This document shows positions 50,963 to 64,000 of a DNA stretch of 64,000 nucleotides, piece after piece; positions within the stretch are counted from its first letter, which is position 1; each line of letters opens with the position of its first letter. Below the pieces are notes generated by a model, which saw only the letters and a program-made list of their open reading frames with translations, had not been told where the DNA came from and did no database searches. Both the position numbers and the translations under genes were made by a program. The stretch comes from an uncultured Solirubrobacterales bacterium (lineage in GTDB: Bacteria > Actinomycetota > Thermoleophilia > Solirubrobacterales > Thermoleophilaceae): contig CAVRSX010000002.1 of the NCBI GenBank assembly GCA_963724115.1, positions 578,746 through 642,745 of the forward strand, given 5' to 3'.

Positions 50963-51039
50963 TGCGCAATCACTCTTTCACGCCCGCGAGCACGGTGTTC
51001 GCCCAGAACTCCGCATATGTAGAGTGGTTCAAGCAGTAA

Positions 51040-54000: not shown

Positions 54001-55356
54001 GTCTCGGCCGCCGACGCCGAGAGCCTGGCCGCCGAGTGCTACGAGAAGGTGGCGTCCGCCCACACCGAGCTCAAGGACACCATGGCCGGGCCGCCCGACA
54101 CCGGCCGCCACGAGATCGACACCACGATGAGCCGGGAGCCCAAGACCACGCTCCCGGAGGACACGCTGCGCTCGCTCAACGAGCAGCTGCTGCGTGTGCC
54201 CGACGGCTTCAACGTGCACCGCAAGCTCAAGCCTTTCCTGGACCGCCGCCGCGCCGCCGCGGCCGAAGATGGGCGCGTGGACTGGGCGCACGCCGAGTCG
54301 CTGGCCTTCGCCTCCCTGCTCGCCCTTGGCGTGCCGGTGCGCATGACCGGCCAGGACACCGAGCGCGGCACGTTCAGCCAGCGCCACCTGGTCTTCCACG
54401 ACTCCGAGAACGGCGACCGCTTCATCCCGCTGCAGAACATCAGCAGCGCCGTGGCCCCGTTCGAGCTTCACAACAGCCCGCTCTCCGAGCAGGCCTGCGT
54501 GGGGTTCGAGTACGGCTACTCGGCAGCCGACCCCGAGGCGCTGGTGCTGTGGGAGGCCCAGTTCGGCGACTTCGTGAACTCCGCCCAGGTGATCCTGGAC
54601 CAATTCCTGGTGTCCGGCCTGGCCAAGTGGGGCGCCACCTCACGCCTGACGCTGTTGCTGCCCCACGGCTACGAGGGCTCGGGCCCCGAGCACTCCTCCG
54701 GCCGCATCGAGCGCTTCCTCCAGGCCTGCGCCGAGGGCAACATGCGCGTGGCCAACACCACCACGCCGGCGCAGTACTTCCACCTGCTGCGCCGCCAGGC
54801 GCTGGTCTCCAAGGCCCGGCCGCTAGTGCTGATGACGCCCAAGAGCCTGCTGCGGCTGCCGGCCGCGACCTCGTCGCTCGAGGACCTCTACGGGGGCGGC
54901 TTCCAGCGCGTGCTCGACGACCCCGCGGCGCCGGAGGACCGCACCAAGGTCACAAAGCTGGTGCTGTGCTCGGGCAAGGTCTACTACGACATCGCCGCCA
55001 ACGACGATCGCGAGCAGCAGGACCACATAGCCGTGGCCCGCGTCGAGATGCTCTACCCGTTCCCCGAAGAGGAGTTGAGGGAGCTCATGAAGAGCTATCC
55101 CAACCTCGAGCGCGTGGTGTGGGTCCAGGAGGAGCCGCGCAACATGGGCCCGCGTGCCTACATGCGCCGGCGGATGGCGGCCATCCTCCCCGAGCACCTG
55201 CACTACTTCTACGTGGGGCGCCAGCTGCGCGCCGCGCAGAGCGAGGGCTACGCGGCCGCGCACCGCAAGGAGCAGGCGCGGATCGTGCGCGTGGCGCTGG
55301 ACCTGGAGGACGACGTGCTCGAGCGCGACGCCTCCGCCGAGCGGCCGCGGCTCTAG
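51040..55356 (+). CDS. Single-polypeptide 2-oxoglutarate dehydrogenase: two lipoyl domains, PSBD, E2o succinyltransferase catalytic domain and E1o (Kgd/OdhA-like but with lipoyl domains)
   Basis: Lipoyl motifs EMSTDKV (Lys codon 51181-51183) and EMSTDKI (51493-51495). PSBD ATPVAARFAADQGVDTSKLTGTGPRGRVTKADV. E2 catalytic motif TSTYDHRVIQGAESG. E1o blocks GMAHRGRLNVLAH, HGDASFPGQG, GYRRFGHNE. One uninterrupted 1438-codon ORF. Confidence 0.9.
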   Translation: MATQGTTVQIKMPTVGESVNEGIVLEWLVQVGDTVAEGQDLVEMSTDKVDAPVPSTVTGVVTKLLVEVDQTVTVGDPLCEIEAGDAPAAPEPSGNGSAADDDAAPEGGGEIVDVTLPEMGDSVVEGTLLEWVVKVGDQVSEGDDLAEMSTDKIDAALPAPVSGTVIELLAEPDETVAVGAVLCRIEATPSGARSGAGAAPSDPAPAAKDKPAAASAATPTPSGNGDATPVAARFAADQGVDTSKLTGTGPRGRVTKADVQNAATGNGAGGKAASAPPAPVPEGAETTVIRGPAATLARFMDLSRSIPTATSFRTLSVGELADRRAQLKGAGKKLSFTHLIAWAIVRAAGDDMPVMANSFTEVDGKPHRVTPSAVSLGLAVDAERKDGSRTLIVPVIKNASAMSFDEFVAAYDEAVFGARDNKLGPDAYTGANITLTNPGGIGTVASVPRLMPGQGTIVATGSIAFPPGMGAVEPETLTELGVQKVMTMTSTYDHRVIQGAESGAFLKRVDELLSGQDDFYGKVFAALGVDGAHVQSSADSDAAVTPTDPVPAVAPAPGGAVDEALLQAVQAATSVVKAHRMQGHLAARLDPLGSVPRGDPALLPESVDLTPELMERIPASVLRMAVPGKTFADALPHLNDTYCGTIAYEIEHIAGPNRRVWLRKAIESGEFRVELDADERKRLLRRLSQVESLEKYLHKAFLGKKQFSIEGLDAMVPMLDEAIELTSRSGAREVILGMAHRGRLNVLAHTVGRPYESILVEFEGEQTLSADTAAPEGGTGDVKYHYGAKGTYKTQEGKDVTVTLAPNPSHLEYVNPVIEGSARADQTSRNGRELSHDPSVVVPLLIHGDASFPGQGIVAETLNLQALSGYSTGGTIHIIANNQLGFTTDPNDSRSTRHASDLAKGFDLPIIHVNADDVEACIAAMRLAVAFRNEFGRDVLIDLVGYRRFGHNETDEPAYTQPQMYEAIKAHPPVREVYAKQLEEQNVVSAADAESLAAECYEKVASAHTELKDTMAGPPDTGRHEIDTTMSREPKTTLPEDTLRSLNEQLLRVPDGFNVHRKLKPFLDRRRAAAAEDGRVDWAHAESLAFASLLALGVPVRMTGQDTERGTFSQRHLVFHDSENGDRFIPLQNISSAVAPFELHNSPLSEQACVGFEYGYSAADPEALVLWEAQFGDFVNSAQVILDQFLVSGLAKWGATSRLTLLLPHGYEGSGPEHSSGRIERFLQACAEGNMRVANTTTPAQYFHLLRRQALVSKARPLVLMTPKSLLRLPAATSSLEDLYGGGFQRVLDDPAAPEDRTKVTKLVLCSGKVYYDIAANDDREQQDHIAVARVEMLYPFPEEELRELMKSYPNLERVVWVQEEPRNMGPRAYMRRRMAAILPEHLHYFYVGRQLRAAQSEGYAAAHRKEQARIVRVALDLEDDVLERDASAERPRL

Positions 55357-55988
55357 CCGGGCCAGCCCTCGACGCCGCGCAGGGGCTCCAGCAGGGCGTC
55401 GTCGTCCGCCTTCGCGCGCAGTCCGGGCGATAGCTCGAGCGCCCTGTGCAGTTCCTCCAGCGCAAGCTCGTACTCGCCCGTCTGGGCGTGGCAGCACGCC
55501 AGCCGGAACTGCACGATGCCGGTATCGATGTGCTCCCCGGCCTCGCGGTCCAGAGTCTCGGCCGCTTCCGCCCAGTCGCCTCGGCGCATCGCATCCTGGG
55601 CCAGGAAGATCGGCTCCCACGGCAGCGAGTGGTAGGCCTGGTCAGGCCAGCCGCCGACCGCGAGCACGACCGTGTCGTCCTCCAGCGCGACGCCGGCGCG
55701 GCGAACCGCCGGATCGGGGAGGAACACCACGTCGCCTTCCCGGGCCTCGGTGTACTCCCCACCGATCTCCATCCGGACCGAGCCACGGATGACGACGTAC
55801 ATCTCCTCCTGGCCGGGGGACTCCACGTGATCCTCAATCACGGCATCGCCGGCGTGGTCCGCTCGATAGGCGTTCGTGCCGAATGCGCCGGCACCCAGCC
55901 TTCGCCGCACTGGGATCCATCCCAGGGAACCGCCGAGAACCAGGACGGCCTCGTCGTCGAAGAGCGAGAGCGTTCGAAACGAGCCCAC
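55353..55988 (-). CDS. Cupin-domain protein with a C-terminal TPR-like segment
   Basis: Cupin beta-barrel block (EEMYVVIRGSVRMEIGGEYTEAREGDVVFLP), then a helical TPR-like end (RRGDWAEAAETL...HAQTGEYELALEELHRALEL). Confidence 0.65.
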   Translation of the reverse strand: MGSFRTLSLFDDEAVLVLGGSLGWIPVRRRLGAGAFGTNAYRADHAGDAVIEDHVESPGQEEMYVVIRGSVRMEIGGEYTEAREGDVVFLPDPAVRRAGVALEDDTVVLAVGGWPDQAYHSLPWEPIFLAQDAMRRGDWAEAAETLDREAGEHIDTGIVQFRLACCHAQTGEYELALEELHRALELSPGLRAKADDDALLEPLRGVEGWPG

Positions 55989-56014
55989 CCGGCAAGCGTA
56001 ACCGCGCGGCTAGA

Positions 56015-56584
56015 TCAGAAGTTCTTGGGGTGGCGCGCCACGAAAGCGGCCGAGCGGCGCAGCGTCTTGCTCCAGCGCGGGCCGGTGTTCGGTCCCGGAG
56101 CGTTGCTGTCACGCATCGAGGTGTCGAAGCGCAGGCCGGCCACCACCACGTAGGCGTGGCCGCCGTGCGCATAGACGGTGATCCAGCGCCCGGTGCCGCG
56201 CCGGCCCCAGTTCATCAGCGAGCCCGACGCCATCGGCGTCTTCAGGAAGCGCCCGCCACGCAACGCGTGGCTGACGGCGCCACTGCAGTCGTAGCCGGCG
56301 GCCAGGCCGGAGGAGGTGGCGCCGTGGCCGCCGCCCCAGCGATAGGGCTTTTTCACGATCTGGTTCGCGGCGGCGATCACGCGCTTGACCTTGGCGGGGG
56401 CGCCGGCAGGGGCCAGCACGCGGCCGCTCTTGAGCAGCTTCGCCTTCTTCGGCGGGGGCGGCGGCGGCACGAACTGGGCGCCACCGGTGTTGGCAGCGGA
56501 GGCGCTGCCCGCACCCAGGAGGGCCAAAACGGCGAACGCCGCAAGGGCGCACGCAAGCAAGTGTGGGCGGAAACGTTGAGTCAT
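56015..56584 (-). CDS. Secreted NlpC/P60 (C40)-like cell-wall hydrolase
   Basis: Signal peptide (LACALAAFAVLALLGAGSASA), Pro-rich linker, YRWGGGHG...GYDCSGAVSHAL catalytic-Cys motif and a later His. It lies directly downstream of the c-di-AMP riboswitch. Confidence 0.75.
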   Translation of the reverse strand: MTQRFRPHLLACALAAFAVLALLGAGSASAANTGGAQFVPPPPPPKKAKLLKSGRVLAPAGAPAKVKRVIAAANQIVKKPYRWGGGHGATSSGLAAGYDCSGAVSHALRGGRFLKTPMASGSLMNWGRRGTGRWITVYAHGGHAYVVVAGLRFDTSMRDSNAPGPNTGPRWSKTLRRSAAFVARHPKNF

Positions 56585-56593
56585 CTCTCTCGG

Positions 56594-56715
56594 ACGCCTG
56601 CGGGGTTAGCTGTCGGGCTCGCGCTGAAAGAGCTGCGCGCCGGAAACGATCTTCCGGTTGGCCCCGGGGACTGATGTGGGTCCCCCGCTCCGCGTGGGTA
56701 ACGCGGATTCGGCGT
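56594..56715 (-). promoter_or_regulatory. ydaO/yuaA-type cyclic-di-AMP riboswitch in the 5' leader of the NlpC/P60-like gene
   Basis: The minus-strand RNA reads ACGCCGAAUC-hairpin-GAGCGGGGGACCCA...GAGCCCGACAGCUAACCCCGCAGGCGU. This matches the conserved ydaO blocks as I remember them from B. subtilis (CGCUUAAUC..GAGCGGGGGACCCA ... CCCGUCAGCUAACCUCGUAAGCGU). P1 is ACGCC/GGCGU, and its 3' strand ends 9 nt before the ATG. Confidence 0.72.
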
Positions 56716-56785
56716 TGTTAGGGGCCAAGAACACCAGCGCCCGCTAAAGGTTGCGCGCCGCTATGTGAGGTGCATCACAGAGCGC

Positions 56786-57589
56786 TCAGCGCTTGTGGGC
56801 CTGGCCCTTGGCCAGATTGGCCGCCAAATCGCGGCTGCCCAGCTTGCGCTGCGCAGCGCCCACCATGCCCGGCGCGATGCCGGCGGCGATCGATCCCAGC
56901 CGCAGGCTGAGCGGCGCCACGTCGACCTCGGGCTTGTTGCGCTCGATGCCGCGGATCACGCCCTCAGCCACCTGCTCGGGTGTCCGCGTGCCCACGCCCT
57001 TCGGTAGCTCGGTGTTGCTCTCGTGGAACATGCCCGCGTCGCGGATGAAGCCGGGGAACACGGTGGTGACGCCGACCCCGGTTCCCACCAGATCCTCGCG
57101 CAGGCCGAGCGCGTAGCCGCGCATGCCGAACTTGGTTGCCGAGTACAGCGAGCTGCCGGGGCTGGCCGTCTTGCCCGACAGCGACGAGATGAACACCAGG
57201 TGGCCCGAGCCGCGCTGGACCATCGGCCCGGCCAGCTCGCGAGCCAGATGCAGCGGCGCGCGCAGGTTCACGTCCAGCGCGCGGTCGACCTCGTCGCCGC
57301 TGAACGAGTCGTAGCGACCGGAGGCGGGCAGGGCCGCGTTGGCCACCAGCACGTCGATCTGGCCCGCGCGCCCGGGCAGTGCCTGCACCTCGGCCGCGTC
57401 GGCCAGGTCCGCGGGCAACGCCTCCACCCGGTCGCCGAGGTCGGCGACGAGGCGGTCCAGCACCTCCTTGCGACGGGCGGTTGCCACGACGGTGGCGCCG
57501 CGGGCGTGCAGGGCGCGCACGATGGCTTCGCCGATGCCTCCGGATGCACCGGTTACAAGGGCACGACTTCCAGCCAGATTCACGCTCAT
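56786..57589 (-). CDS. SDR-family oxidoreductase
   Basis: Starts MSVNLAGSRALVTGASGGIG (TGxxxGxG), with catalytic YSATK. The 768-aa ORF extending upstream is antisense junk. Confidence 0.85.
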   Translation of the reverse strand: MSVNLAGSRALVTGASGGIGEAIVRALHARGATVVATARRKEVLDRLVADLGDRVEALPADLADAAEVQALPGRAGQIDVLVANAALPASGRYDSFSGDEVDRALDVNLRAPLHLARELAGPMVQRGSGHLVFISSLSGKTASPGSSLYSATKFGMRGYALGLREDLVGTGVGVTTVFPGFIRDAGMFHESNTELPKGVGTRTPEQVAEGVIRGIERNKPEVDVAPLSLRLGSIAAGIAPGMVGAAQRKLGSRDLAANLAKGQAHKR

Positions 57590-57703
57590 CGGCTGATTAT
57601 TACTCCCGGGCGCCGGTTGATGCCGGCGCAGCGACCCCATAGCCTCAACGCGAGGAGCGGCCTCGCCGTCCGGCCAGGCCGGATCGACCGAGGGAGAAGA
57701 GCC

Positions 57704-58849
57704 ATGCCGATTCCGACAGAGACCGTCGGGTCGCTTCCACGTCCGCGGAAGCTCCAGGACGCCTACGAGGATCTGGACCAGGGCAAGATCACATTCGAGG
57801 ATCTCCAGAAGCTGCAGGACGAGGCCGCCAAGGACTCGATCCAGCGCCTGGAACAGACCGGCGAGAAGTACGTGAACGACGGGGAACAGCGCGAGTCCAG
57901 CTTCGCCACCTACCCGATCACGGACACCCTGGCCGGCACCGGCCTGGCGGACAACCTGGCGGGCGATGGCCAGTTCTTCGCCATCTTCGACGACGGCCAC
58001 CACCGCCAGCTGCCGCGCCTGACCGGCGGCCCATTCCGGTACAAGACGTTCGCCAGCGAGTTCGTGGAGAAGAACAAGGCCGACGCCACCCACCCGGTCA
58101 AGCAGGCCGTGATCTCGCCGTCGATGATGATGCTGCTGTACCCGCTCGAGGACGAGCTCGAGGGCTATCCCCGCGAGCAGTTCCTCAACGACGTGATCGA
58201 CGAGTGCGAGAAGGACATCCGCCAGTGCTTCGCCGCCGGAGCCGAGCGCGTGTCGGTCGACTTCACCGAAGGCCGCCTGGCCAACAAGAACGACTCGCGC
58301 AACCCCTGGACCGGCAAGGACATGCTCCAGGACTTCATCGACCTGAACAACCGGCTGTTCGAGCGCTTCTCGGCCGAGGAGCGCAAGAACATCGGCATCC
58401 ACACCTGTCCCGGCGGCGACAACGACTCGGTGCACTCCAAGGAGGTGCCCTACGAGAAGCTGCTGAGCAAGATGTTCAACATGAATGCCGGCTACTTCCT
58501 GATCCAGTGCGCGTCCGAGGACGACAGGGAGACGGTCTACAAGCTCGTGGGCGAGTACTCCCGCGACGACGCCGACGGCGTCCCGCAGGTCTGCTTCATG
58601 GGCGTGATCAATCCGCTCAGCCCCGAGGTCGAGACCCCCGAGCACGTGCGCGACGAGCTGCTCGCCGCGGCCAAGCACATCCCGGTCGAGCGGCTCGGGG
58701 CCACCGACGACTGCGGCTTCTCGCCGTTCTCGCGCGACCTCAAGCCCGGCCACGGCAGCGACCCGGACTACGCCCGGGACGTGGCCATGCAGAAGATCAC
58801 CAACCGGATCAAGGGCGCCAGGATGGCCAGCGAGGAGTTGGGCGTCTGA
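57704..58849 (+). CDS. Cobalamin-independent methionine synthase II family protein (MetE C-terminal-domain-like)
   Basis: MPIPTETVGSLPRP start typical of this family. Zn-ligand-type motifs IHTCPGG and DDCGFSPF. Confidence 0.75.
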   Translation: MPIPTETVGSLPRPRKLQDAYEDLDQGKITFEDLQKLQDEAAKDSIQRLEQTGEKYVNDGEQRESSFATYPITDTLAGTGLADNLAGDGQFFAIFDDGHHRQLPRLTGGPFRYKTFASEFVEKNKADATHPVKQAVISPSMMMLLYPLEDELEGYPREQFLNDVIDECEKDIRQCFAAGAERVSVDFTEGRLANKNDSRNPWTGKDMLQDFIDLNNRLFERFSAEERKNIGIHTCPGGDNDSVHSKEVPYEKLLSKMFNMNAGYFLIQCASEDDRETVYKLVGEYSRDDADGVPQVCFMGVINPLSPEVETPEHVRDELLAAAKHIPVERLGATDDCGFSPFSRDLKPGHGSDPDYARDVAMQKITNRIKGARMASEELGV

Positions 58850-58885
58850 GGAGAGGGGCGCCAGCGACCTGCGACGATTCTCCCG

Positions 58886-59071
58886 GTGTCGGAATACCAC
58901 GCTCAGGCCCACCTCGATGCGCCGCTGGATGAGGTCTGGGGGCTCGTCGGGAACCCCGCCACCTACCCTCAGTGGTGGCCGGTCGCGGTCGAGGCCCTGG
59001 CCATTAGGGGCTGCGTCGGACACTGGCCTCGGCGTGACCGCCTGAGGTCCCGGCTCTGGGTGGGCGTCTAG
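58886..59071 (+). pseudogene. Probable truncated SRPBCC-family (polyketide cyclase/dehydrase-like) gene remnant
   Basis: VSEYHAQAHLDAPLDEVWGLVGNPATYPQWWP looks like the first ~35 aa of an SRPBCC protein. The ORF degenerates and stops at 61 aa, whereas family members as I recall them are about 140-150 aa. Confidence 0.4.
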
Positions 59072-59098
59072 GGCGCCCGCCTCGATCCGCAAAACCGT

Positions 59099-59140
59099 TC
59101 ACCTGTTTTCGGGGTCCTGACCCCGAAAATGAGTGAACCG
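59099..59140. repeat. 42-nt extended inverted repeat with a perfect 11-2-11 core (TTTTCGGGGTC-CT-GACCCCGAAAA)
   Basis: Core arms at 59108-59118 and 59121-59131. Outer arms GTTCAC/GTGAAC at 59099-59104 and 59135-59140. The linking triplets pair as U.G and G.U on the + strand only. It lies 47 nt upstream of tRNA-Asp. Confidence 0.7.
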
Positions 59141-59186
59141 CGGTTCGTTCCTCCCCGTCCCGCTCCGCTATCCTCGCCGGACGCCA

Positions 59187-59260
<74 letters not shown>

Positions 59261-59534
59261 TCCCGAGGAATCCCTGCACCTGCTGGGATTTCTGCATCTT
59301 GTGGGCCGTTTGAAAGTGCGTTGCGCCCGCGGAGTAGCGCCTTGGAGCGCTCGGGCCCACCGCCGCGCGGGCAGCTCGCCGCGCAACTCGCCGGCGGCGT
59401 CGTCAAGGCTTTTCGCCCGCCTGCATCAGTGGCAACGCGGGAGGCGTCGCTGACCACTACGAACTGGCGGTCATCGGCAGAGTCGCGCCGCAGTGCCACG
59501 TAGCGCCGCGGCGCGATGATCACGGAACGCCTGG

Positions 59535-60008
59535 CTATTGGGCGACGGTTCCGGTGAAGGTCTCCCGACCTTCCGCTTCGCTGCTGAACTTCACCTTCAT
59601 CCGACCGCGCCCGCGTAGCCCCTCAAAGCGGCCGCTGCCATCCAGGATCCTCCAAGAACCGCTTTGGCGCGTGCAGCTCTGTCCACCGACCGGACTGAAG
59701 GTGATCGTCAGGCGGCCGTCGTGGCAGCGGAACGTCTTGACCATCGACCCCTCGCCGGTGCCCCCCTTCCGGTCGCGGAAGCGTCCACCGGGGCAGAATG
59801 CCGAGTCGCCGATGGAGGACCCGCGGACGACCTCGCCCACGGGGATGTCAAGGCGCGTCTTGATGAGGATCGCCTCGCCGCCCTCTCCGCTGGCTGCGAA
59901 GCGATCGCGATCGGTCGTCCCGCCTCCGTCTCCGTCGTCGTCGCCGCAGGCCCCGAGGCCAATTGCCGTGACCGCCAGGGCCACCGCGAACCAGCGAACC
60001 CGGTGCAT
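59535..60008 (-). CDS. Hypothetical lipoprotein
   Basis: Start set at MHRVRWFAVALAVTAIGLGAC (signal peptide plus lipobox-like LGAC), followed by a Gly/Asp-rich linker. The longer 210-aa ORF start is less plausible. No family recognised. Confidence 0.55.
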   Translation of the reverse strand: MHRVRWFAVALAVTAIGLGACGDDDGDGGGTTDRDRFAASGEGGEAILIKTRLDIPVGEVVRGSSIGDSAFCPGGRFRDRKGGTGEGSMVKTFRCHDGRLTITFSPVGGQSCTRQSGSWRILDGSGRFEGLRGRGRMKVKFSSEAEGRETFTGTVAQ

Positions 60009-60116
60009 CTCGATATATGGAACTCGTAGATCGCTCATGTCCGAAGCATCCGCTCGGCGCAACGCGGGCGCCATGGGCGAGCAAGGGCCAAACCCGCCGA
60101 CCGAGAGACAGGCGAA

Positions 60117-60165
60117 CCTTGCCCGGGGGCAAGGGACCTTGCCGCGAGGTAAGCGCCGGCTTGCC
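60117..60165. promoter_or_regulatory. Array of five alternating-orientation heptamer half-sites (CCTTGCC / GGCAAGG / CCTTGCC / GGTAAGC / GCTTGCC) upstream of the giant signalling gene
   Basis: Half-site starts at 60117, 60128, 60137, 60148 and 60159, giving spacings of 11, 9, 11 and 11 nt. The first pair extends to a perfect 8-2-8 palindrome, CCTTGCCC-GG-GGGCAAGG. The array lies 68-116 nt upstream of ATG 60233. Confidence 0.45.
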
Positions 60166-60232
60166 AACAGCCCGGGACGGCAACCACCGGACTCCCGTTG
60201 CGTGAAGTGTCGCCCCGGCGGATGATGCCCTC

Positions 60233-63200
60233 ATGGGCCAGCGGCGGACCGTCGCGACATCAGCGCGACCGGTCATCAAGGAGCGCTATGAGGTGCTGAG
60301 TACGCTCGGCGCCGGCGGCGAGGGGCATGTCTTCAAGGCCCTGGACCTCCAGCACGACCGAGTCGTCGCGTTGAAGATCCGCGAGGTGCGCGACGACCGC
60401 TTGCGCGATGAGCTCCTGAACGAGGCTCGGATCCTGCTTGCCGTTTCCCCGCATCCGGCGCTGCCACTGGTTCGGGAGGACTTCTTCGACGGTGACAGGT
60501 ACGTCGTGGCCATGGACTGGGTGGAGGGCACCGACCTTGCGAGGCTGCTGAGCGAGCGGGGCCGGCCGGGTCTGGCGCCGTCGAGCGTGCTCGCCTACCT
60601 CGCCCAGGCGGCCGAGGCGCTGACCCACCTTCATTCTCAGGACTCGCCCGTCATCCACGGCGACGTCAAGCCGGCGAACTTGATCCTGACCAAGGGCGGG
60701 CGCGTGAAGCTTGTGGACTTCGGCATGTCCTCGGCCCCGGCGGCGCCGCACCGGCGCGCGGGTACACCCGGCTTTCGCGCGCCCGAGCTCGCCGGCGACG
60801 GGGTGCCGGCGCGCGCCAGCGACGTCTATTCGCTTGCTGCCACCGCGTTCGCGCTGCTGAGCGGATCGCCCCCTTCGGGCGTGCTGCCGTCCTGGGAAGG
60901 CATCGGGGCCGCTCAGGCCGATCAGCTGGAGGCCGCGCTCCGCTTGGGACTGGCGACCGATCCCGCGCGCCGCCCGGGGACGCCGGGCGAGCTTGTGGAG
61001 AGCCTCCGCAGCGGCTGGGCCGCGGCATTGCCGACCGGCGTGATGACGTTCTGCCTATCTGACATCTCGGGCTCGACGATGCTGTGGGAACGCGATCCTG
61101 CGGCGATGGCCGAGGCGCTCGTCCGCCACGACGCGATCATCGCTGCGCAGGTCGAGGCCCGCGGCGGCCGAGTTCTCAAGTCGATGGGCGAAGGCGACTC
61201 GACGGTCTCGGTGTTCGAGTCGGCGCCTCGGGCGCTCGACGCTGCGCTCGCTGCCACCCGCGCCCTGCAGGAAGAGGCGTGGCCCGGTGGGCTGGGGATT
61301 GCTGTCCGATTCGGGTTGCACACGGGCGAGGCTGAACGCCGCGGAGCCGACTACTTCGGGCCGACACTCAACCTGGCCGCCCGGCTACGCGGACAAGCGG
61401 ACGGCGGCCAGGTCTTCGTCTCGGCGGCGACGGTAGCGCTCGTCGCCCAACACCTCCCGGCCGGCTGCGAGCTCGTCGACCTCGGCCCGCACCGGCTGCG
61501 CGGAATCAGCGAACCGGAGAAGATCCACGCCCTCAAGGGCCCCGGGATCGGTGCGCCGCTGCCTGTAGGAGAGTCCCCCTACCGGGGTCTGCCGGCGTTC
61601 GAGCCGGACGACCGGCGGTTCTTCTTCGGACGCGAGCACGTCGTCGAGGAGATCCTCGCGCGGCTCGCGCCCGGTCGCTTGCTGGCTGTAATAGGCGCCT
61701 CAGGGAGCGGCAAGTCCTCGGTATTGCGCGCAGGCGTGGCCGGCGCCGCACTGGACGGGGAGGCCGAAGGGCTCGAGCACACGCGGATCCTGGTCCCCGG
61801 CACCGAACCCCGGCTCGAGGCGATGGGCGCGCCGAGCGAGCTGGTCGTCGTCGATCAGTTCGAGGAGCTCTACACGTTGTGTGAGGACCAGGCGCTCCGC
61901 GACGCCTTCATCGACGGACTGCTCGCGCTGCCCTCTCCGGTCGTGATCGGCGTGCGCGCCGACCTATACGGGAAGTTGAGCGACCACCCACAGTTGGCGC
62001 GGGCGGTCGCAGACAACCAAATCCTGCTCGGCGCCATGGGCGACGACGAGCTCGAGCGGGCCATCACCGAGCCGGCGCGCATCGCCGGCTTGAAACTCGA
62101 GCCGGGCCTCGTGGAGCTCATTCTGCGCGACGTGGCGCGCGAGCCCGGCGCCCTGCCGCTCCTATCGCATGCACTGCGCGTGACCTGGGAACAGCGCGAC
62201 GGGCGAACGCTCACGGTCGAGGGATACCGCGCCAGCGGCGGCGTCGGGGAGGCGATCGCACAGACGGCCGACTCCGTCTTGGAGGCAGTGCCGCCCGATC
62301 GCCAGGGCTTGATGCGCAACGTCTTCCTGCGCATGACGGAGCTTGGCGAGGGGATCGAGGACACGCGCCGCCGGGTCGCGGTCGATGAGCTGGTGCCGGA
62401 GGGGGCCTCCCCGGAGGAGGTCCAGACGCTGCTCGACCGGCTGGCGGATGCGAGGCTCGTGACGCTCGGCGAGGGGACGGCGGAGGTCGCCCACGAGGTG
62501 CTGATCCGCGAGTGGCCCACGCTGCGCGCCTGGCTCGAGGAGGACCGCGCGGGTATCCGTCTGCACCGCCAGCTGGGCGACGCGGCCCGTCTCTGGGACG
62601 CGGGGGGCCGGGAGCCCGGCGATCTCTACCGCGGCACGAGGCTCGTCGCGGCGATGGAATGGGCGCGATCGCACCCCGACGCACTGAATGCGGGCGAGCG
62701 AGCGTTTCTCGATACGAGCGTCGCGGAATCAGAGCGCGAACGCCGTGCGCAGCTCCGCGCCAACCGGCGCTTGCGCGGGCTGCTCGCGGGTGCCTCGCTC
62801 CTACTCGTCGCCGCCGCGATCGCGGGCGTTCTCGCGCTGCGCCAGGGCGGCCGCGCGAGCGACTCCGCTCGGACCGCGGATGCGCAGCGCCTCGGCGCCC
62901 AGGCCCTGGTCGACGACCAGCTGGACCGCAGCCTCCAGCTCGCACAGGCGGGGCGCGAACTCGATGACTCCGTCGCCACACGCGGCTACCTGCTGTCGGC
63001 GTTGGTGCGCCGGCCGGCTGCTATCGGCGTGATGCAGGGAGACGGGGATCCGTTCTTCGTGCTGGCGCTGAGCCCGGACGGTCGGATGCTCGCCGCCGGG
63101 GACGACAACGGGACGGTCGTCCTGCTCGACAGGCGCACGCGCGAGCGCATCGGCGGACCGCTGCAGGTCAACCTCCTGGAGGTCGGGGGCCTCGACTTCT

Positions 63201-64000
63201 CGCCGAACGGCAGGTTGCTTGCAGTCGCGGGTCGGGTGGGCGAGGCGCGCGACGCCCAGAGCGTGAAGCTCGTCGACCTCGCCACCAGGAAGGTGGTCCG
63301 CACGATCGATATCAAAGGCTTTCCGTTCGACCCCGAGGGGTTCGGGGTGGTCGCCGATGTCCGTTTCGCCGACGGCGGTCGGACCGTCCTTGTGAGCGTC
63401 ACGCCGGACGCGCCGGAGGGTCCTCCGCCGTACCTGCGACGGTATGAGACGCGCACCGGCAGGTCCTTGGGACCCGGTGTCCGGATCGGCCGGGGGGCCG
63501 CCGGTGTCGCCGCGACGGTTCCCTCCCGGCGCGACCGCCTGCTCGTCACCAGGCCTGACGGAACGTTCGTGGTCGACGCAGCAACGCTGCGCGTGCGGCG
63601 CCGGATCCCGGTGGGCTCCTCCGCCCCGGCCCTGTCTCCGGACGGGCGGAGGGCCGCGCTCGGCGGATTCGACGGCAGCGTCGCCATCCTCGATCTCCGT
63701 ACGGGCAAGCGGCGGACGCTCAGCGGTCGGCACGAGGATCGGGTGCGCGCACTGGCGTTCAGCGCCGATGGACGCACGCTTGTGACGACGGCCGGCGACG
63801 GCCGGGTGCTGGTCTGGGACCTGCGCTCGGGCGAGGTGCGCGAGACCCTGACCGGACACACCGGCGCCGTCAACACCCTCAAGGTCAGCGACGACGGCCA
63901 CACGCTCTACACCGCCGGGCTCGACGGCCGGATCATCGTCTGGGACCTCGCCGGTGACCGCCGCCTCGCGCGCCCATTCCCGGCGGGAGGCCAGAACGGG
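60233..64000 (+). CDS. Giant multidomain signalling protein: Ser/Thr protein kinase, class III adenylate/guanylate cyclase, nSTAND-like P-loop NTPase, TM helix and WD40 repeats (3' end outside window)
   Basis: Absent from the ORF track because it has no stop. I translated 1256 uninterrupted codons by hand from ATG 60233; the preceding in-frame stop is at 60203. Kinase: GAGGEGHVFKA, VVALKI, HGDVKPANL, DFG, GTPGFRAPE. Cyclase (~61037-61545): TFCLSDISGSTMLW, LKSMGEGDS, GLHTGEAE, GPTLNLAARL. NTPase (~61575-62700): PYRGLPAFEPDDRRFFFGRE, Walker A GASGSGKSS, VVVDQFEE. TM at 62771-62839. WD40-type repeats follow (LAFSADGRTLVTTAGDGRVLVWDL, GHTGAVNTLKVSDDGHTLYTAGLDGRIIVWDL). Confidence 0.88.
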   Translation, partial: MGQRRTVATSARPVIKERYEVLSTLGAGGEGHVFKALDLQHDRVVALKIREVRDDRLRDELLNEARILLAVSPHPALPLVREDFFDGDRYVVAMDWVEGTDLARLLSERGRPGLAPSSVLAYLAQAAEALTHLHSQDSPVIHGDVKPANLILTKGGRVKLVDFGMSSAPAAPHRRAGTPGFRAPELAGDGVPARASDVYSLAATAFALLSGSPPSGVLPSWEGIGAAQADQLEAALRLGLATDPARRPGTPGELVESLRSGWAAALPTGVMTFCLSDISGSTMLWERDPAAMAEALVRHDAIIAAQVEARGGRVLKSMGEGDSTVSVFESAPRALDAALAATRALQEEAWPGGLGIAVRFGLHTGEAERRGADYFGPTLNLAARLRGQADGGQVFVSAATVALVAQHLPAGCELVDLGPHRLRGISEPEKIHALKGPGIGAPLPVGESPYRGLPAFEPDDRRFFFGREHVVEEILARLAPGRLLAVIGASGSGKSSVLRAGVAGAALDGEAEGLEHTRILVPGTEPRLEAMGAPSELVVVDQFEELYTLCEDQALRDAFIDGLLALPSPVVIGVRADLYGKLSDHPQLARAVADNQILLGAMGDDELERAITEPARIAGLKLEPGLVELILRDVAREPGALPLLSHALRVTWEQRDGRTLTVEGYRASGGVGEAIAQTADSVLEAVPPDRQGLMRNVFLRMTELGEGIEDTRRRVAVDELVPEGASPEEVQTLLDRLADARLVTLGEGTAEVAHEVLIREWPTLRAWLEEDRAGIRLHRQLGDAARLWDAGGREPGDLYRGTRLVAAMEWARSHPDALNAGERAFLDTSVAESERERRAQLRANRRLRGLLAGASLLLVAAAIAGVLALRQGGRASDSARTADAQRLGAQALVDDQLDRSLQLAQAGRELDDSVATRGYLLSALVRRPAAIGVMQGDGDPFFVLALSPDGRMLAAGDDNGTVVLLDRRTRERIGGPLQVNLLEVGGLDFSPNGRLLAVAGRVGEARDAQSVKLVDLATRKVVRTIDIKGFPFDPEGFGVVADVRFADGGRTVLVSVTPDAPEGPPPYLRRYETRTGRSLGPGVRIGRGAAGVAATVPSRRDRLLVTRPDGTFVVDAATLRVRRRIPVGSSAPALSPDGRRAALGGFDGSVAILDLRTGKRRTLSGRHEDRVRALAFSADGRTLVTTAGDGRVLVWDLRSGEVRETLTGHTGAVNTLKVSDDGHTLYTAGLDGRIIVWDLAGDRRLARPFPAGGQNG

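What the first reader, a model, noticed from the sequence alone, without database searches (positions are those of the whole stretch)
60233..64000. Open-ended giant gene fusing kinase, nucleotide cyclase, STAND NTPase, TM helix and WD40 repeats
This gene is not in the supplied ORF track because it runs off the window. It combines four modules.

- A Ser/Thr kinase with intact VALK, HGD, DFG and APE motifs.
- A class III cyclase with the metal-binding Asp (FCLSDISGST), the K…GD block and the N…R pair (TLNLAARL).
- A P-loop NTPase. Its lead-in PYRGLxxFxxxDxxFFFGRE, Walker A GASGSGKSS and Walker B-like VVVDQFEE match what I recall of the nSTAND1-type STAND family.
- One predicted TM helix (62771-62839) followed by WD40 repeats.

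Kinase-STAND proteins (PknK-like) and cyclase-STAND proteins (Rv0386-like) are known. I do not know of a described protein that carries both enzymatic heads on one STAND-WD40 chassis. STAND NTPases with repeat sensors and N-terminal effector domains are the logic of Avs-type antiphage and NLR-like systems, and class III-like cyclases generate defence signals in Pycsar. The location beside a tRNA, after a gene remnant and with atypical codons, fits an accessory sensor. On ligand recognition by the propeller it might both phosphorylate targets and produce a cyclic nucleotide. If the TM helix is real, the WD40 sensor would be extracytoplasmic, which is unusual for STAND proteins.
Basis: partly seen in the sequence, partly recalled or inferred. 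Interest (0 to 1): 0.75.

Follow-up and report, generated by a model that had tools for sequence, protein, structure and literature searches.

The report
Transmembrane STAND receptor kinase–cyclase signalling module
This is a real 1,572-residue bacterial membrane protein that joins a protein kinase, a cAMP-forming cyclase and an ATP-driven switch inside the cell to a double-propeller sensor predicted to sit outside it; it almost always comes with a phosphate-reading gene regulator, which makes it a widespread but undescribed signalling module and probably not the antiviral weapon first suspected.

Summary
Window 60233-64000 (+) is open for all 1256 codons. Pfam supports Pkinase, Guanylate_cyc, nSTAND1 (5.9e-114) and WD40. 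An identical database protein shows the gene is 1572 aa and should end near 64951.

The hydrophobic segment (aa 849-869) behaves like a true membrane anchor across the whole nSTAND1-WD40 clade. Charge bias and paired cysteines place the tandem propellers outside the cell.

New findings:
- An FHA+LuxR/GerE regulator gene is adjacent in 44 of 45 kinase-bearing loci and in 0 of 36 kinase-less loci, in three different arrangements.
- A palindrome, GGYAAG-N6-CTTGCC (window 60148-60165), is about 115-fold enriched beside the module. It always precedes a small exported-protein gene (window 59535-60008, minus strand).
- Sister clades carry DNA-binding heads (XRE HTH; SARP-cyclase).
- In a near-identical relative the three genes lie between tRNA-Asp and a 51-nt repeat of its 3' end.

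The best reading is an outside-in receptor that controls transcription through phospho-signalling and cAMP. An Avs- or Pycsar-like defence role is not supported but is not excluded. The architecture is common in sequence databases, but I found no description of it in the literature. I rate it a new variant of a known kind.

The parts
59187..59260 (+). tRNA-Asp (GTC). Probable integration site (attL side) of the roughly 6.3-kb three-gene module.
   Evidence: ARAGORN and Rfam tRNA at 72 bits. In the syntenic relative L085, the 3' 51 nt of this tRNA recur as a direct repeat 6351 bp away, just past the FHA gene. The right-hand repeat would lie beyond the window.
59535..60008 (-). Small exported protein gene: a 157-aa predicted lipoprotein starting MHRVRWFAVALAVTAIGLGAC. 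It is the candidate regulated target and third component of the module. An alternative upstream start at 60074 would give 179 aa.
   Evidence: The ORF and its N-terminus are shown. It is 98% identical in L085, and the region is about 79% identical at DNA level in L001. It has no Pfam or PADLOC match. In at least 22 of 27 motif-bearing loci, the gene next to the palindrome starts with a signal peptide or lipobox. The signal peptide is inferred by eye and regex, not by a dedicated predictor.
60117..60165 (.). Operator-like array. It comprises an exact palindrome, GGTAAG-cgccgg-CTTGCC (60148-60165), plus half-sites CCTTGCC (60117-60123), GGCAAGG (60128-60134) and CCTTGCC (60137-60143). It lies between the divergent lipoprotein gene and the giant gene, with the palindrome starting 85 nt upstream of the giant gene's ATG.
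   Evidence: This is the only match in the 64-kb window. Sequence is shown. The motif (≤1 mismatch) occurs 46 times in 35,028 nt of module flanks against 10 times in 879,601 nt elsewhere, in 26 of 43 loci.
60233..64000 (+). Giant gene, first 1256 of 1572 codons. It runs off the window and is predicted to end near 64951.
   Evidence: P0001 is 100% identical and 1572 aa. L085 shows the complete gene and its downstream neighbour.
60287..61018 (+). Hanks-type Ser/Thr kinase head (aa 19-262). It is a non-RD kinase (HGD).
   Evidence: Pfam Pkinase 3.6e-33. K48, E64, H142, D144, K146, N149, DFG and APE are invariant in 25 of 25 homologs.
61043..61534 (+). Class III nucleotide cyclase domain (aa 271-434), predicted to be an adenylyl cyclase.
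   Evidence: Pfam Guanylate_cyc at 41 bits against a cut-off of 21.9. The closest solved relative is Ma1120, 6.1e-15. Conservation: D277 25/25, D322 24/25, K316 21/25, D373 22/25, N380 24/25, R384 23/25. A two-residue 'GE' insertion precedes the canonical GD.
61553..62632 (+). nSTAND1 STAND NTPase (aa about 441-800). Walker A is at 61694-61720 (GASGSGKSS) and Walker B at 61841-61867 (LVVVDQFEE).
   Evidence: Pfam PF20703 5.9e-114. Motifs are invariant. The AF2 model has pLDDT 84. Foldseek best matches are Cdc6/Orc1, Apaf-1, NB-ARC, NOD2 and Avs4, all at low TM of about 0.3. No solved structure is close by sequence.
62777..62839 (+). Single transmembrane helix (aa 849-869), predicted N-in/C-out.
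   Evidence: KD19 is 2.46. A hydrophobic stretch (KD19 2.1-2.95) occupies the same position in all 48 relatives tested, down to about 33% identity, with K+R of 3-8 before it and 1-4 after it. AF2 places it inside one continuous 74-residue helix, not packed into a domain.
62840..64000 (+). Start of the predicted extracytoplasmic sensor: a three-helix stalk followed by tandem WD40 β-propellers (aa 870-1572, continuing past the window).
   Evidence: The AF2 model has pLDDT 89.2 and pTM 0.81, with about 14 four-stranded blades. Foldseek matches 2YMU at 1.2e-39 and the Apaf-1 WD40 region at TMq 0.53. The number of cysteines after the TM helix is even in 45 of 48 proteins, in close pairs. This is the most divergent region, with mean pairwise identity of 0.40 against 0.72-0.79 for the cytoplasmic domains.

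Best explanation
The gene encodes a single-pass membrane receptor. It is the sensor of a three-gene signalling module.

**Shown**
- The architecture is kinase, class III cyclase, nSTAND1 NTPase, one hydrophobic helix, then a tandem WD40 double propeller.
- An FHA + LuxR/GerE-HTH gene is almost always adjacent.
- A module-specific palindrome, GGYAAG-N6-CTTGCC, lies in front of a small exported-protein gene. In this clade it also lies in front of the giant gene.

**Inferred mechanism**
1. The propellers lie outside the cytoplasmic membrane and bind an unknown extracellular or envelope ligand.
2. Because the sensor cannot fold back on the NTPase across the membrane, activation probably works through ligand-driven clustering, relayed by the rigid stalk-TM-juxtamembrane helix. 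This allows ATP-dependent oligomerisation of the nSTAND1 domains.
3. Oligomerisation brings the N-terminal heads together. The kinases trans-phosphorylate. The class III cyclase domains, which form active sites only as dimers (established for the family), make cAMP.
4. Phospho-threonine is read by the FHA domain of the partner, or the partner is itself phosphorylated. This changes its binding to the palindrome and hence transcription of the exported small protein and of the receptor gene.

In this lineage the module rides on a small integrase-less islet inserted at a tRNA gene.
For: **Architecture and catalytic motifs:**

**Topology**
- The position of the hydrophobic helix is conserved in 48 of 48 relatives, while its sequence is not.
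- The flanking charges follow the positive-inside rule.
- The ectodomain has an even number of cysteines, in pairs, in 45 of 48 proteins. The N-terminal part shows no such parity.
- AF2 models the segment as one long isolated helix.

**Partner**
- The FHA gene is adjacent in 44 of 45 kinase-bearing loci and in 0 of 36 kinase-less loci.
- It keeps its adjacency through three arrangements: convergent with a 4-bp overlap, divergent, and co-directional.
- Its domains are FHA (about 1e-18) plus GerE (about 1e-6).
- Kinase and FHA identities co-vary across 41 loci, rho 0.92.
- The partner follows the kinase-cyclase head onto a different, cytosolic NB-ARC-TPR chassis.

**Transcriptional output**
- Sister clades replace the kinase with DNA-binding heads: HTH_31-nSTAND1-TM-WD40 and BTAD-cyclase-nSTAND1-TM-WD40.

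**Operator**
- About 115-fold enrichment beside the module.
- Often two copies 42 or 53 bp apart.
- Always upstream of a gene with a signal peptide or lipobox.

**Mobility:**

**Precedents from established knowledge, not tested here:** PknH-EmbR (receptor kinase plus FHA-bearing regulator), PknD (kinase-TM-β-propeller), Rv0386 (active cyclase fused to a STAND ATPase and LuxR HTH). FHA+LuxR, PKc+LuxR and CHD+LuxR proteins are catalogued in Actinobacteria (PMC3466318).
Against: - No biochemical or genetic data exist for any member.
- Topology rests on hydropathy, charge and cysteine statistics, not on a dedicated predictor or an experiment. The sequences are phylogenetically related, so the counts are not independent.
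- The canonical Arg of the FHA 'GR' phosphate-binding motif is not conserved in the partner (K, T or A), although the Ser, His and Asn signature residues are invariant. Phospho-threonine binding could therefore be weakened or atypical.
- The cyclase has an unusual GEGD motif. phmmer aligns a Glu, not an Asp, to the second metal site, whereas the multiple alignment places D322 there.
- The palindrome is absent from the more distant clades at 39-47% identity, including every co-directional locus. It has not been shown to bind the partner.
- One kinase-bearing locus (L025) lacks the FHA gene within about 5.7 kb on either side.
- The ligand is unknown.
- nSTAND1 was originally defined within predicted conflict systems (PMC8195603).
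Confidence: 0.55

Rival explanations
1. It is an Avs/NLR-like antiphage or conflict system. The propeller recognises an invader-derived molecule, the STAND oligomerises, and the kinase and cyclase act as effectors through toxic phosphorylation or a defence nucleotide.
For: - nSTAND1 was defined in predicted counter-invader systems (PMC8195603).
- Kinases are listed as effectors in such systems (PMC7159879).
- The kinase domain matches the PADLOC mad6, PD-T4-6 and MkoA kinase models.
- The module sits on a tRNA-flanked islet and shows recent exchange between genomes.
- The sensor region evolves fastest.
- At least one MAG carries two paralogous modules (L007 and L034).
Against: - The PADLOC hits cover only the generic kinase fold. 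The STAND part gets P-loop-level hits at best. The partner and the small protein match nothing.
- Flanking genes in six sampled loci are metabolic or regulatory. The one exception is an Abi_alpha gene 10 kb away in L002.
- The sensor is predicted to be outside the cell, where the cytosolic phage proteins sensed by known Avs proteins are not available.
- The invariant partner is a transcription factor, not a toxin.
- Sister clades carry DNA-binding heads.
- The cyclase looks like an ordinary adenylyl cyclase, and no cNMP-activated effector is adjacent.
- A 2026 STAND survey classes only 198 of 589 clades as defence-associated and places MalT, GutR and AfsR among non-immune STANDs (PMC13581612).
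Confidence: 0.15
2. The architecture and partner are as in the best explanation, but the cyclase domain is a non-catalytic dimerisation or regulatory module. It would play the structural role that the kinase-homology domain plays in animal receptor guanylyl cyclases, with the roles of the two domains swapped. Only the kinase-FHA branch would carry the signal.
For: - The metal-site motif is atypical: GEGD with a two-residue insertion. phmmer aligns Glu to the second metal Asp.
- The Pfam score is modest (41 bits).
- Some family members have degenerate cyclase motifs, for example L023 and P0141.
- No cNMP-binding protein was seen in the neighbourhoods of the nSTAND1 family.
Against: - In the multiple alignment, D322 aligns with the canonical GD Asp.
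- D277, D322, K316, D373, N380 and R384 are conserved in 21-25 of 25 homologs.
- The domain is as conserved as the NTPase, with mean identity 0.72.
- A related kinase-cyclase-AAA_16 protein, P0218, has a cNMP-binding protein gene next door.
- The same GEGDS variant is shared by all kinase-linked cyclases examined, which indicates a conserved subfamily rather than decay.
Confidence: 0.15
3. The hydrophobic helix is not a membrane anchor. The protein is cytosolic, like classical STANDs, and the helix mediates oligomerisation or packs against the propellers.
For: - Known STAND NTPases are cytosolic.
- The segment is rich in Ala, Gly and Leu, which can also occur in buried soluble helices.
- No topology predictor or experiment was available.
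- Exporting a 700-residue double propeller without a cleavable signal peptide is demanding.
Against: - KD19 is 2.1-2.95 in 48 of 48 relatives, at a conserved position but with unconserved sequence.
- An Arg-rich cluster always lies on the N-terminal side.
- Cysteines are paired on the C-terminal side only.
- AF2 does not pack the segment against any domain.
- There is precedent for kinase-TM-β-propeller receptors such as PknD (own knowledge).
Confidence: 0.08

Closest known systems
HTH_31(XRE)-nSTAND1-TM-WD40 and BTAD(SARP)-cyclase-nSTAND1-TM-WD40 proteins of Streptomyces, Streptosporangium and Chloroflexota. These are uncharacterised sister clades found here.
   Same: - They share the same nSTAND1 NTPase at 32-44% identity over the chassis.
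- They share the hydrophobic helix at the same position, the tandem WD40 region and the C-terminal Cys pair.
- The Chloroflexota form also has the cyclase.
   Different: - Their N-terminal heads bind DNA directly (XRE HTH or SARP/BTAD) instead of carrying a kinase.
- They have no FHA-LuxR neighbour (0 of 36).
- The Chloroflexota cyclase has a canonical GD motif without the GE insertion.
Mycobacterium tuberculosis PknH-EmbR, and PknD (own knowledge; not tested here)
   Same: - A single-pass receptor Ser/Thr kinase with an extracytoplasmic sensor. In PknD the sensor is a β-propeller.
- It signals to a transcription regulator that carries an FHA domain (EmbR = SARP + FHA).
   Different: - No STAND NTPase or cyclase lies between the kinase and the membrane.
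- The kinase domain is membrane-proximal.
- The regulator's DNA-binding domain is SARP, not LuxR/GerE.
- The propeller is NHL-type, not WD40.
Rv0386/Rv1358/Rv2488c-type cyclase-STAND(AAA_16)-TPR-LuxR regulators, and PknK (kinase-AAA_16/MalT-like) of mycobacteria (own knowledge). CHD+LuxR and PKc+TPR+LuxR architectures are catalogued in PMC3466318.
   Same: - An enzymatic signalling head (class III cyclase or Ser/Thr kinase) is fused N-terminally to a STAND-type ATPase with a repeat sensor.
- The output is through a LuxR-type HTH.
   Different: - Each carries one head, not both.
- They are cytosolic with TPR sensors and belong to a different STAND clade (AAA_16/LAL).
- The LuxR HTH is on the same polypeptide instead of on a separate FHA-bearing partner.
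Kinase-cyclase-NB-ARC/TPR and kinase-cyclase-AAA_16/TPR proteins (for example P0172, P0188, P0218, P0194; uncharacterised database proteins)
   Same: - They have a homologous kinase-cyclase dual head at 45-56% identity, including the GEGDS cyclase variant.
- P0172 has the same 202-aa FHA-GerE partner 6 bp upstream.
   Different: - Different STAND clade, TPR sensor, and no WD40 propeller by Pfam.
- P0218 and P0247 have no FHA neighbour. P0218 is next to a cNMP-binding protein gene, and P0247 sits inside a heme-biosynthesis operon.
Avs (antiviral STAND) and bacterial NLR-like defence proteins (PMC13581612; own knowledge of Gao et al. 2022)
   Same: - Tripartite logic: N-terminal output, central STAND NTPase, C-terminal repeat sensor.
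- Oligomerisation on ligand binding is the expected activation mode.
- Avs4 appears among the Foldseek hits.
   Different: - The Foldseek similarity is generic (TM about 0.3).
- Avs effectors are cell-killing nucleases, proteases and the like.
- Avs sensors are cytosolic and mostly TPR-like.
- Here there is no defence context, no PADLOC match beyond the kinase fold, a predicted extracellular sensor and a transcription-factor partner.
Animal receptor guanylyl cyclases (own knowledge)
   Same: A single-pass receptor in which a kinase-like domain is followed by a class III cyclase domain that must dimerise. The ligand is sensed outside the cell.
   Different: - The polarity is opposite: there the sensor is N-terminal, here it is C-terminal.
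- The kinase-homology domain is inactive there, while all catalytic motifs are intact here.
- There is no STAND NTPase.
- The resemblance is an analogy, with no specific homology.

Membership tests
nSTAND1 STAND NTPase (Pfam PF20703) | Profile match above the curated cut-off | tested here: met
   382.1 bits against a cut-off of 27.1, E = 5.9e-114.
nSTAND1 STAND NTPase (Pfam PF20703) | Intact Walker A (GxxxxGK[ST]) and Walker B (hhhhD) motifs | tested here: met
   In GASGSGKSS, G488 and S490-S496 are 25/25 and A489 is 24/25; V540-DQFEE is invariant in 25 of 25 homologs.
nSTAND1 STAND NTPase (Pfam PF20703) | AAA+/STAND fold with helical and winged-helix modules after the P-loop domain, and a C-terminal repeat sensor | tested here: met
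   The AF2 model has pLDDT 84. Foldseek matches Cdc6/Orc1, Apaf-1, NB-ARC, NOD2 and Avs4 at E of about 1e-5 to 1e-7 but low TM of about 0.3. The WD40 double propeller follows.
Hanks-type Ser/Thr protein kinase (PF00069) | Profile match plus the catalytic Lys, αC Glu, HxD...N catalytic loop, DFG and APE | tested here: met
   115.5 bits against a cut-off of 31.7. K48, E64, H142, D144, K146, N149, D162-F-G and A183-P-E are 25/25. Residue 143 is Gly, so this is a non-RD kinase.
Class III nucleotide cyclase (PF00211) | Profile match above the cut-off | tested here: met
   41.0 bits against a cut-off of 21.9. The closest solved relative is the adenylyl cyclase Ma1120, 6.1e-15.
Class III nucleotide cyclase (PF00211) | Two metal-binding Asp residues | tested here: inconclusive
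   D277 is 25/25. For the second site, phmmer aligns E320 and MAFFT aligns D322 (24/25) after a two-residue GE insertion. An acidic residue is available under either alignment, but the geometry is untested.
Class III nucleotide cyclase (PF00211) | Substrate-specifying Lys/Asp pair (adenine) and the transition-state Asn/Arg pair | tested here: met
   K316 21/25, D373 22/25 (seven residues before the Asn, as in canonical adenylyl cyclases), N380 24/25, R384 23/25.
Class III nucleotide cyclase (PF00211) | Cyclase activity as a dimer | not testable with these tools
   Requires an enzyme assay.
Avs / antiviral STAND defence systems | Match to a defence-system model, or an N-terminal cell-killing effector domain | tested here: not met
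   PADLOC hits are limited to generic kinase models and weak P-loop matches at E ≥ 5e-5. The heads are signalling enzymes.
Avs / antiviral STAND defence systems | Location in defence islands or next to known defence genes | tested here: not met
   Neighbours in the window and in L001, L002, L083, L084 and L085 are metabolic, transport or regulatory. The only defence-like gene is one Abi_alpha gene 10 kb away in L002. This is a small sample.
Avs / antiviral STAND defence systems | Protection against phage | not testable with these tools
   Requires a phage challenge.
Pycsar (cyclase plus cNMP-activated effector) | An adjacent effector gene with a cNMP-binding domain fused to a TM or TIR toxic module | tested here: not met
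   No such gene appears in any sampled neighbourhood of the nSTAND1 family. No PADLOC Pycsar match was found.
Receptor Ser/Thr kinase plus FHA-domain transcription regulator pair (PknH-EmbR type) | A membrane-anchored kinase with an extracytoplasmic sensor domain | tested here: met
   Met by prediction only: hydropathy, the positive-inside rule, cysteine parity and the AF2 model.
Receptor Ser/Thr kinase plus FHA-domain transcription regulator pair (PknH-EmbR type) | A genetically linked regulator combining FHA and a DNA-binding domain | tested here: met
   FHA (about 1e-18) plus GerE/LuxR HTH (1e-6 to 2e-4). The gene is adjacent in 44 of 45 kinase-bearing loci and 0 of 36 kinase-less loci. In the window itself the gene lies beyond the end; this is inferred from L085, L001 and L008.
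Receptor Ser/Thr kinase plus FHA-domain transcription regulator pair (PknH-EmbR type) | Canonical FHA phospho-threonine-binding residues (GR Arg, SxxH, N) | tested here: inconclusive
   The Ser, His and Asn-Gly signature residues are invariant in 43 partners. The GR Arg is replaced by K, T or A.
Receptor Ser/Thr kinase plus FHA-domain transcription regulator pair (PknH-EmbR type) | Phosphorylation of, or phospho-dependent binding to, the regulator | not testable with these tools
   Requires biochemistry.
tRNA-integrated genomic island | A direct repeat of the tRNA 3' end bracketing the insert | tested here: met
   - L085: tRNA-Asp at 9022-9096, with a 51-nt repeat at 15396-15446 (90% identity, last 41 nt identical), 6351 bp apart.
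- L008: tRNA-Gln at 16867-16939, with a 48-nt repeat at 8514-8561 (94% identity), 8352 bp apart.
- In the window only the tRNA side is visible.
tRNA-integrated genomic island | An integrase gene inside the island | tested here: not met
   The ORFs between the repeats in L085 and L008 have no integrase or recombinase domains.
tRNA-integrated genomic island | An unoccupied site in a related genome | tested here: inconclusive
   An exact-pattern search for tRNA-Asp joined to L085's right flank found nothing in metagenome contigs. The pattern may have been too strict.

The most novel reading that the evidence does not exclude
This would be the first recognised class of transmembrane NLR-like receptors in bacteria. 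A STAND NTPase whose repeat sensor lies outside the cell cannot be autoinhibited by sensor-NOD contact. It would instead work as an outside-in 'signalosome'. Ligand-driven clustering would fire two second-messenger branches from one polypeptide, protein phosphorylation and cAMP, and reprogramme transcription through a dedicated FHA-LuxR factor and its palindromic operator. The fast-evolving exported small protein under that operator could itself be the ligand or a co-receptor. The module would then be a self-contained, horizontally mobile, autocrine or quorum-like (or kin/competitor-sensing) circuit.
Probability: 0.25. Interest if true: 0.8.

Novelty: new variant of a known kind. Interest (0 to 1): 0.6.

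Why it matters
STAND/NLR proteins are understood as cytosolic receptors in which the sensor folds back on the NTPase. A large, conserved clade with the sensor on the far side of a membrane would require a different activation logic. It would also link NLR-type switches to receptor-kinase and receptor-cyclase signalling.

The comparative data give an unusually complete and testable wiring diagram for an uncharacterised system. It includes a receptor, two enzymatic outputs, a dedicated phospho-reading transcription factor, a candidate 18-bp operator and a candidate target gene. A cultured carrier is available: Solirubrobacter soli DSM 22325.

The result also cautions against reading every STAND-plus-effector fusion as antiphage defence.

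Tried and rejected
- **Exact-sequence contig look-up for P0001.** Nothing on record. I used the cluster-mate P0121 instead.
- **Sequence search of the nSTAND1 region against the PDB.** Only P-loop-level ABC ATPase hits.
- **Foldseek of the nSTAND1 model.** Only generic AAA+/STAND folds, so no specific structural family could be assigned.
- **Rfam scan of 58800-60400.** Only the tRNA matched. The conserved intergenic block is therefore not a known RNA family, and I interpreted the GGCAAG/CTTGCC repeats as an operator instead.
- **Sigma-70 promoter and intrinsic terminator scan of 59250-60300.** Nothing found, as expected for a 71% GC actinobacterium.
- **Empty-site search in metagenome contigs.** No hits.
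- **tRNA-end direct repeats around the module in L002**, which has tRNA-Ser next to the FHA gene. None found.
- **Shared palindrome upstream of the FHA gene in the eight co-directional loci.** None found.
- **PADLOC on the partner, the small protein and the STAND part.** Nothing meaningful.
- **Pfam on the small exported proteins.** Nothing.
- **An OdhA-OdhI/GarA-type link to the neighbouring 2-oxoglutarate dehydrogenase gene.** Considered and rejected, because that adjacency is not conserved in other loci.
- **Literature searches** for nSTAND1, kinase-cyclase-STAND fusions and membrane-anchored STAND-WD40 proteins. No description of this architecture was found.

Full report

Yes. Translating window 60233-64000 (+) gives 1256 codons without a stop.

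Pfam places four families above their curated cut-offs:
- Pkinase, aa 19-215, 3.6e-33
- Guanylate_cyc, aa 271-434, 2e-10 (41 bits against a cut-off of 21.9)
- nSTAND1 PF20703, 5.9e-114
- WD40 repeats, 6.2e-25

NCBIfam adds only generic kinase and LipJ-type cyclase similarity.

A database protein that is 100% identical over the whole fragment (P0001) is 1572 aa long. The gene is therefore intact and should end near window position 64951.

The upstream 'gene remnant' is actually an intact minus-strand gene. Codon usage is unremarkable: GC3 is 0.86 against 0.81-0.97 for the window's other long ORFs.

**2. How common is it, and where does it occur?**

The word-indexed search returned more than 120 clusters at 90% identity. 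These are 58-88% identical and almost all about 1565-1600 aa long (a few partial or truncated entries), with the same domains. Most come from soil metagenomes and MAGs. Automatic names include 'WD40 repeat protein/class 3 adenylate cyclase...' and 'protein kinase [Solirubrobacteraceae bacterium]'.

The exhaustive search of 50%-identity representatives with aa 1-860 found about 30 representatives that match across the whole kinase-cyclase-nSTAND1-TM span.

The scan of species-representative genomes found 586 relatives.
- The full four-domain form occurs in Solirubrobacterales and other Thermoleophilia. This includes cultured Solirubrobacter soli DSM 22325, as well as Conexibacter, Paraconexibacteraceae and Thermoleophilaceae.
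- It also occurs in a few Acidimicrobiia.

The window's own genome is a close relative of Solirubrobacterales MAGs. The best species representative is 88% identical.

**3. Catalytic competence**

*Kinase.* The glycine loop, K48, E64, H142-G-D144, K146, N149, DFG and APE are all 25/25. The HGD triplet makes it a non-RD kinase.

*Cyclase.* The nearest solved relative is the active mycobacterial adenylyl cyclase Ma1120, at 6.1e-15.
- D277 (first metal Asp) is invariant.
- N380 and R384 (transition state) and K316 and D373 (adenine-specifying pair, with the canonical seven-residue spacing from Asp to Asn) are conserved in 21-24 of 25 homologs.
- The second metal site is unusual, reading K-S-M-G-E-G-D. 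phmmer aligns E320 to the canonical Asp.
- A multiple alignment with canonical cyclases shows a two-residue 'GE' insertion, with D322 (24/25) on the canonical GD Asp.
- This GEGDS variant is shared by all kinase-linked cyclases I examined. I read that as a conserved subfamily, not decay.

I infer an adenylyl cyclase. This is not proven.

*NTPase.* Walker A and Walker B are invariant. The AF2 model (pLDDT 84) resembles AAA+/STAND proteins only generically: Cdc6/Orc1, Apaf-1, NB-ARC, NOD2 and Avs4, all at TM of about 0.3.

**4. The transmembrane helix and topology**

Residues 849-869 have a 19-residue Kyte-Doolittle mean of 2.46.

A hydrophobic stretch of 2.1-2.95 lies at the equivalent position in every one of 48 relatives examined. 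This includes Streptomyces and Chloroflexota proteins only about 33-37% identical. The sequence of the stretch is not conserved.

It is always preceded by an Arg-rich cluster. There are 3-8 K+R in the 15 residues before it and 1-4 in the 15 residues after it.

AF2 models aa about 820-893 as one uninterrupted helix that packs against nothing.

The region after the helix contains an even number of cysteines in 45 of 48 proteins (2, 4 or 6). They occur in close pairs, including an invariant pair 25 residues apart at the extreme C-terminus. The N-terminal part shows no such parity. That is the pattern expected for disulfide-bonded extracytoplasmic domains.

The ectodomain model (pLDDT 89, pTM 0.81) is a three-helix stalk followed by about 14 blades. 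It is most similar to the 14-blade Nostoc protein 2YMU and to the Apaf-1 WD40 region.

I conclude, by inference, an N-in/C-out single-pass receptor with a tandem propeller outside the cell. The sensor is also the fastest-evolving part, with mean pairwise identity of 0.40 against 0.72-0.79 for the cytoplasmic domains.

**5. A conserved partner**

In the first two relatives I fetched, the only shared neighbour was a 202-aa gene overlapping the 3' end of the giant gene convergently by 4 bp. It encodes an FHA domain followed by a LuxR/GerE helix-turn-helix.

Across the fetched loci, it is adjacent in 44 of 45 loci that have the kinase head and in none of the 36 that lack it.

The adjacency survives three different arrangements:
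- downstream convergent
- upstream divergent, 12-60 bp apart
- upstream co-directional

Kinase-domain and FHA-protein identities co-vary across 41 loci, with Spearman rho of 0.92. This shows co-inheritance without partner swapping. Part of the correlation simply reflects shared phylogeny.

The window contains no copy. In the syntenic near-identical relative L085, whose protein differs at 17 of 1572 residues, the gene sits immediately past the point where the window ends.

One caveat applies. The Ser, His and Asn-Gly FHA signature residues are invariant in 43 partners, but the Arg of the 'GR' motif is K, T or A.

**6. What the sister clades say about output**

Relatives that share the nSTAND1-TM-WD40 chassis but lack the kinase carry DNA-binding heads:
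- an XRE-type HTH_31 in Streptomyces, Streptosporangium and Chloroflexia
- a SARP/BTAD domain followed by a cyclase in Anaerolineales and other Chloroflexota

Transcription therefore appears to be the usual output of this chassis. In the kinase form, DNA binding has been moved to a separate protein reached by phospho-signalling.

Conversely, the kinase-cyclase head is a portable cassette. It also sits on NB-ARC-TPR, AAA_16-TPR and triple-AAA_16 chassis. The NB-ARC-TPR example has the same FHA-GerE gene 6 bp upstream. Two more distant examples do not: one lies next to a small cNMP-binding protein gene and one lies inside a heme operon.

**7. A candidate operator and a third gene**

The intergenic region upstream of the giant gene is conserved among near relatives. 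It contains the palindrome GGTAAG-N6-CTTGCC at 60148-60165, plus further GGCAAGG/CCTTGCC half-sites at 60117-60143.

This is the only match in the window.

Allowing one mismatch, the motif occurs 46 times in 35,028 nt of module flanks and intergenic DNA, against 10 times in 879,601 nt of the remaining sequence of 43 loci. That is about 115-fold enrichment, and 26 of 43 loci have the motif. It often appears as two copies 42 or 53 bp apart.

- In the near clade it lies 63-108 nt upstream of the giant gene, in a divergent promoter region.
- In the divergent-arrangement clade it lies just past the FHA gene.

In both cases it directly precedes a small gene whose product begins with a lipoprotein or Sec/Tat-like signal sequence. 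This holds for the window (MHRVRWFAVALAVTAIGLGAC...) and for at least 22 of 27 motif-bearing loci.

These small proteins fall into several unrelated sequence families and match no Pfam or PADLOC model.

The motif is absent from the most distant clades.

I interpret the palindrome as the likely operator of the FHA-LuxR protein. I interpret the exported protein, and in this clade the receptor itself, as its regulon. Both are inferences.

**8. Genomic status**

Upstream neighbours in the window are core metabolism: a fused OdhA-like 2-oxoglutarate dehydrogenase, MTHFR and a MetE-like gene. Outside the module, the flanks differ between relatives.

Compared with L085, window 59528-64000 is 98.3% identical, while the syntenic housekeeping genes upstream are only 84-88% identical.

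In L085 the three genes lie between tRNA-Asp and a 51-nt direct repeat of its 3' end, 6351 bp apart.

In L008, another species, a 48-nt repeat of the tRNA-Gln 3' end brackets 8352 bp. That segment holds the module plus a LipJ-like hydrolase-cyclase gene.

Neither insert contains an integrase. An empty-site search found nothing.

The module therefore behaves as a small, integrase-less islet that has been exchanged recently. That alone does not make it a defence system.

**9. Defence or signalling?**

*Against defence:*
- PADLOC hits are generic only.
- The sampled neighbourhoods show no defence context.
- The sensor is predicted to be outside the cell.
- The partner is a transcription factor.
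- The sister clades have DNA-binding heads.
- The cyclase looks like an ordinary adenylyl cyclase with no cNMP-activated effector nearby.

*For defence:*
- nSTAND1 was defined in predicted conflict systems (PMC8195603).
- Kinases and FHA domains do occur in such systems (PMC7159879).
- The module is mobile and its sensor diverges quickly.

The 2026 survey of prokaryotic STANDs classes only 198 of 589 clades as defence-associated. It lists MalT, GutR and AfsR-type regulators among non-immune STANDs (PMC13581612).

I assign about 0.55 to the receptor/transcription model and about 0.15 to defence.

**10. Novelty**

Every component and each pairwise combination has precedent:
- cyclase-STAND-LuxR (Rv0386 type)
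- kinase-STAND (PknK)
- receptor kinase plus FHA regulator (PknH-EmbR)
- kinase-TM-propeller (PknD)
- FHA+LuxR proteins (PMC3466318)

I found no description of the following:
- both heads on one STAND
- a STAND with a membrane-spanning helix and an external WD40 sensor
- the dedicated FHA-LuxR partner
- the palindrome and the exported-protein target

The literature library is limited to open-access papers and preprints, so absence there is not proof.

I rate the finding as a new variant of a known kind, with interest 0.6.

Noticed in passing
window 51040-55356 (+): A 1438-aa fused 2-oxoglutarate dehydrogenase with two lipoyl domains, an E2 acyltransferase and E1o (OdhA/Kgd-like). In other Actinobacteria this enzyme is controlled by a small FHA protein (OdhI/GarA) phosphorylated by Ser/Thr kinases. 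Its position about 5 kb from a kinase/FHA module is probably coincidental, because the adjacency is not conserved in other loci.
   Followed up: partly
window about 59528 (boundary), compared with L085 9299: There is a sharp identity discontinuity between two syntenic genomes. Identity is 98.3% from 59528 to the window's end, against 84-88% for the housekeeping genes upstream (49954-58848). This implies recent recombination or transfer of the module.
   Followed up: partly
window 60020-60100; also L034 about 1690-1780 and about 6976-7070: A conserved block of about 80 nt, GATCGCTCATGTCCGAAGCATCCGCTCGG...GCGCCATGGGCG...GGGGCCA, lies next to the start of the small lipoprotein gene. It occurs twice in L034: once beside the giant gene and once beside the FHA gene, each time next to a divergent exported-protein gene. 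It contains short palindromes (CGCTC/GAGCG and GCGCCATGGGCGC) and has no Rfam match. It could be a 5' leader or a second operator.
   Followed up: partly
L008 15181-16806 (+): The tRNA-Gln-bracketed islet of this relative carries an extra gene encoding a LipJ-like α/β-hydrolase fused to a class III cyclase. That makes it a second cAMP-related cargo on the same islet.
   Followed up: no
L007 and L034 (both from MAG MFD00962.bin.2.17): One genome carries two paralogous receptor genes, each with its own adjacent FHA-LuxR gene (89% and 91% identical to the L001 partner). This suggests insulated parallel pathways, as with paralogous two-component systems.
   Followed up: no
L088 3395-3718 (-) next to P0218; L087 4001-8221 (P0247): More distant kinase-cyclase-AAA_16 proteins have different contexts. 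One is divergently paired with a 107-aa cNMP-binding protein, a possible cAMP receptor. One is inserted between hemC and hemD in a heme-biosynthesis operon.
   Followed up: no
L001 24384-24716 (-) and beyond: A 1273-aa Trans_reg_C-BTAD-cyclase-AAA_16-TPR protein (a SARP-cyclase-STAND regulator) lies 10 kb from the module in a close relative. These genomes therefore hold several cyclase-STAND regulators.
   Followed up: no
L002 15334-15423 (-): A tRNA-Ser gene lies 28 bp from the start of the FHA gene in this relative, making a third case of tRNA adjacency. No flanking direct repeat was detected.
   Followed up: partly
window 57023-58849 (+) compared with L085 6830-8910: The window has one 608-aa ORF with only a weak MetE-like match at its C-terminus. 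The syntenic relative has a 267-aa SDR gene on the minus strand plus a 381-aa Meth_synt_2 gene. This may reflect a difference in gene structure or in gene calling.
   Followed up: no
C-terminus of the giant protein (aa 1536-1572, beyond the window): The tail motif W-x3-AC-x-VAGR-x-LT-x-AEW-x-E-x-VPDQDYR-x-VC, with two invariant cysteines, is conserved from Solirubrobacterales to Streptomyces and Chloroflexota nSTAND1-WD40 proteins. AF2 models it as two short helices capping the second propeller.
   Followed up: partly
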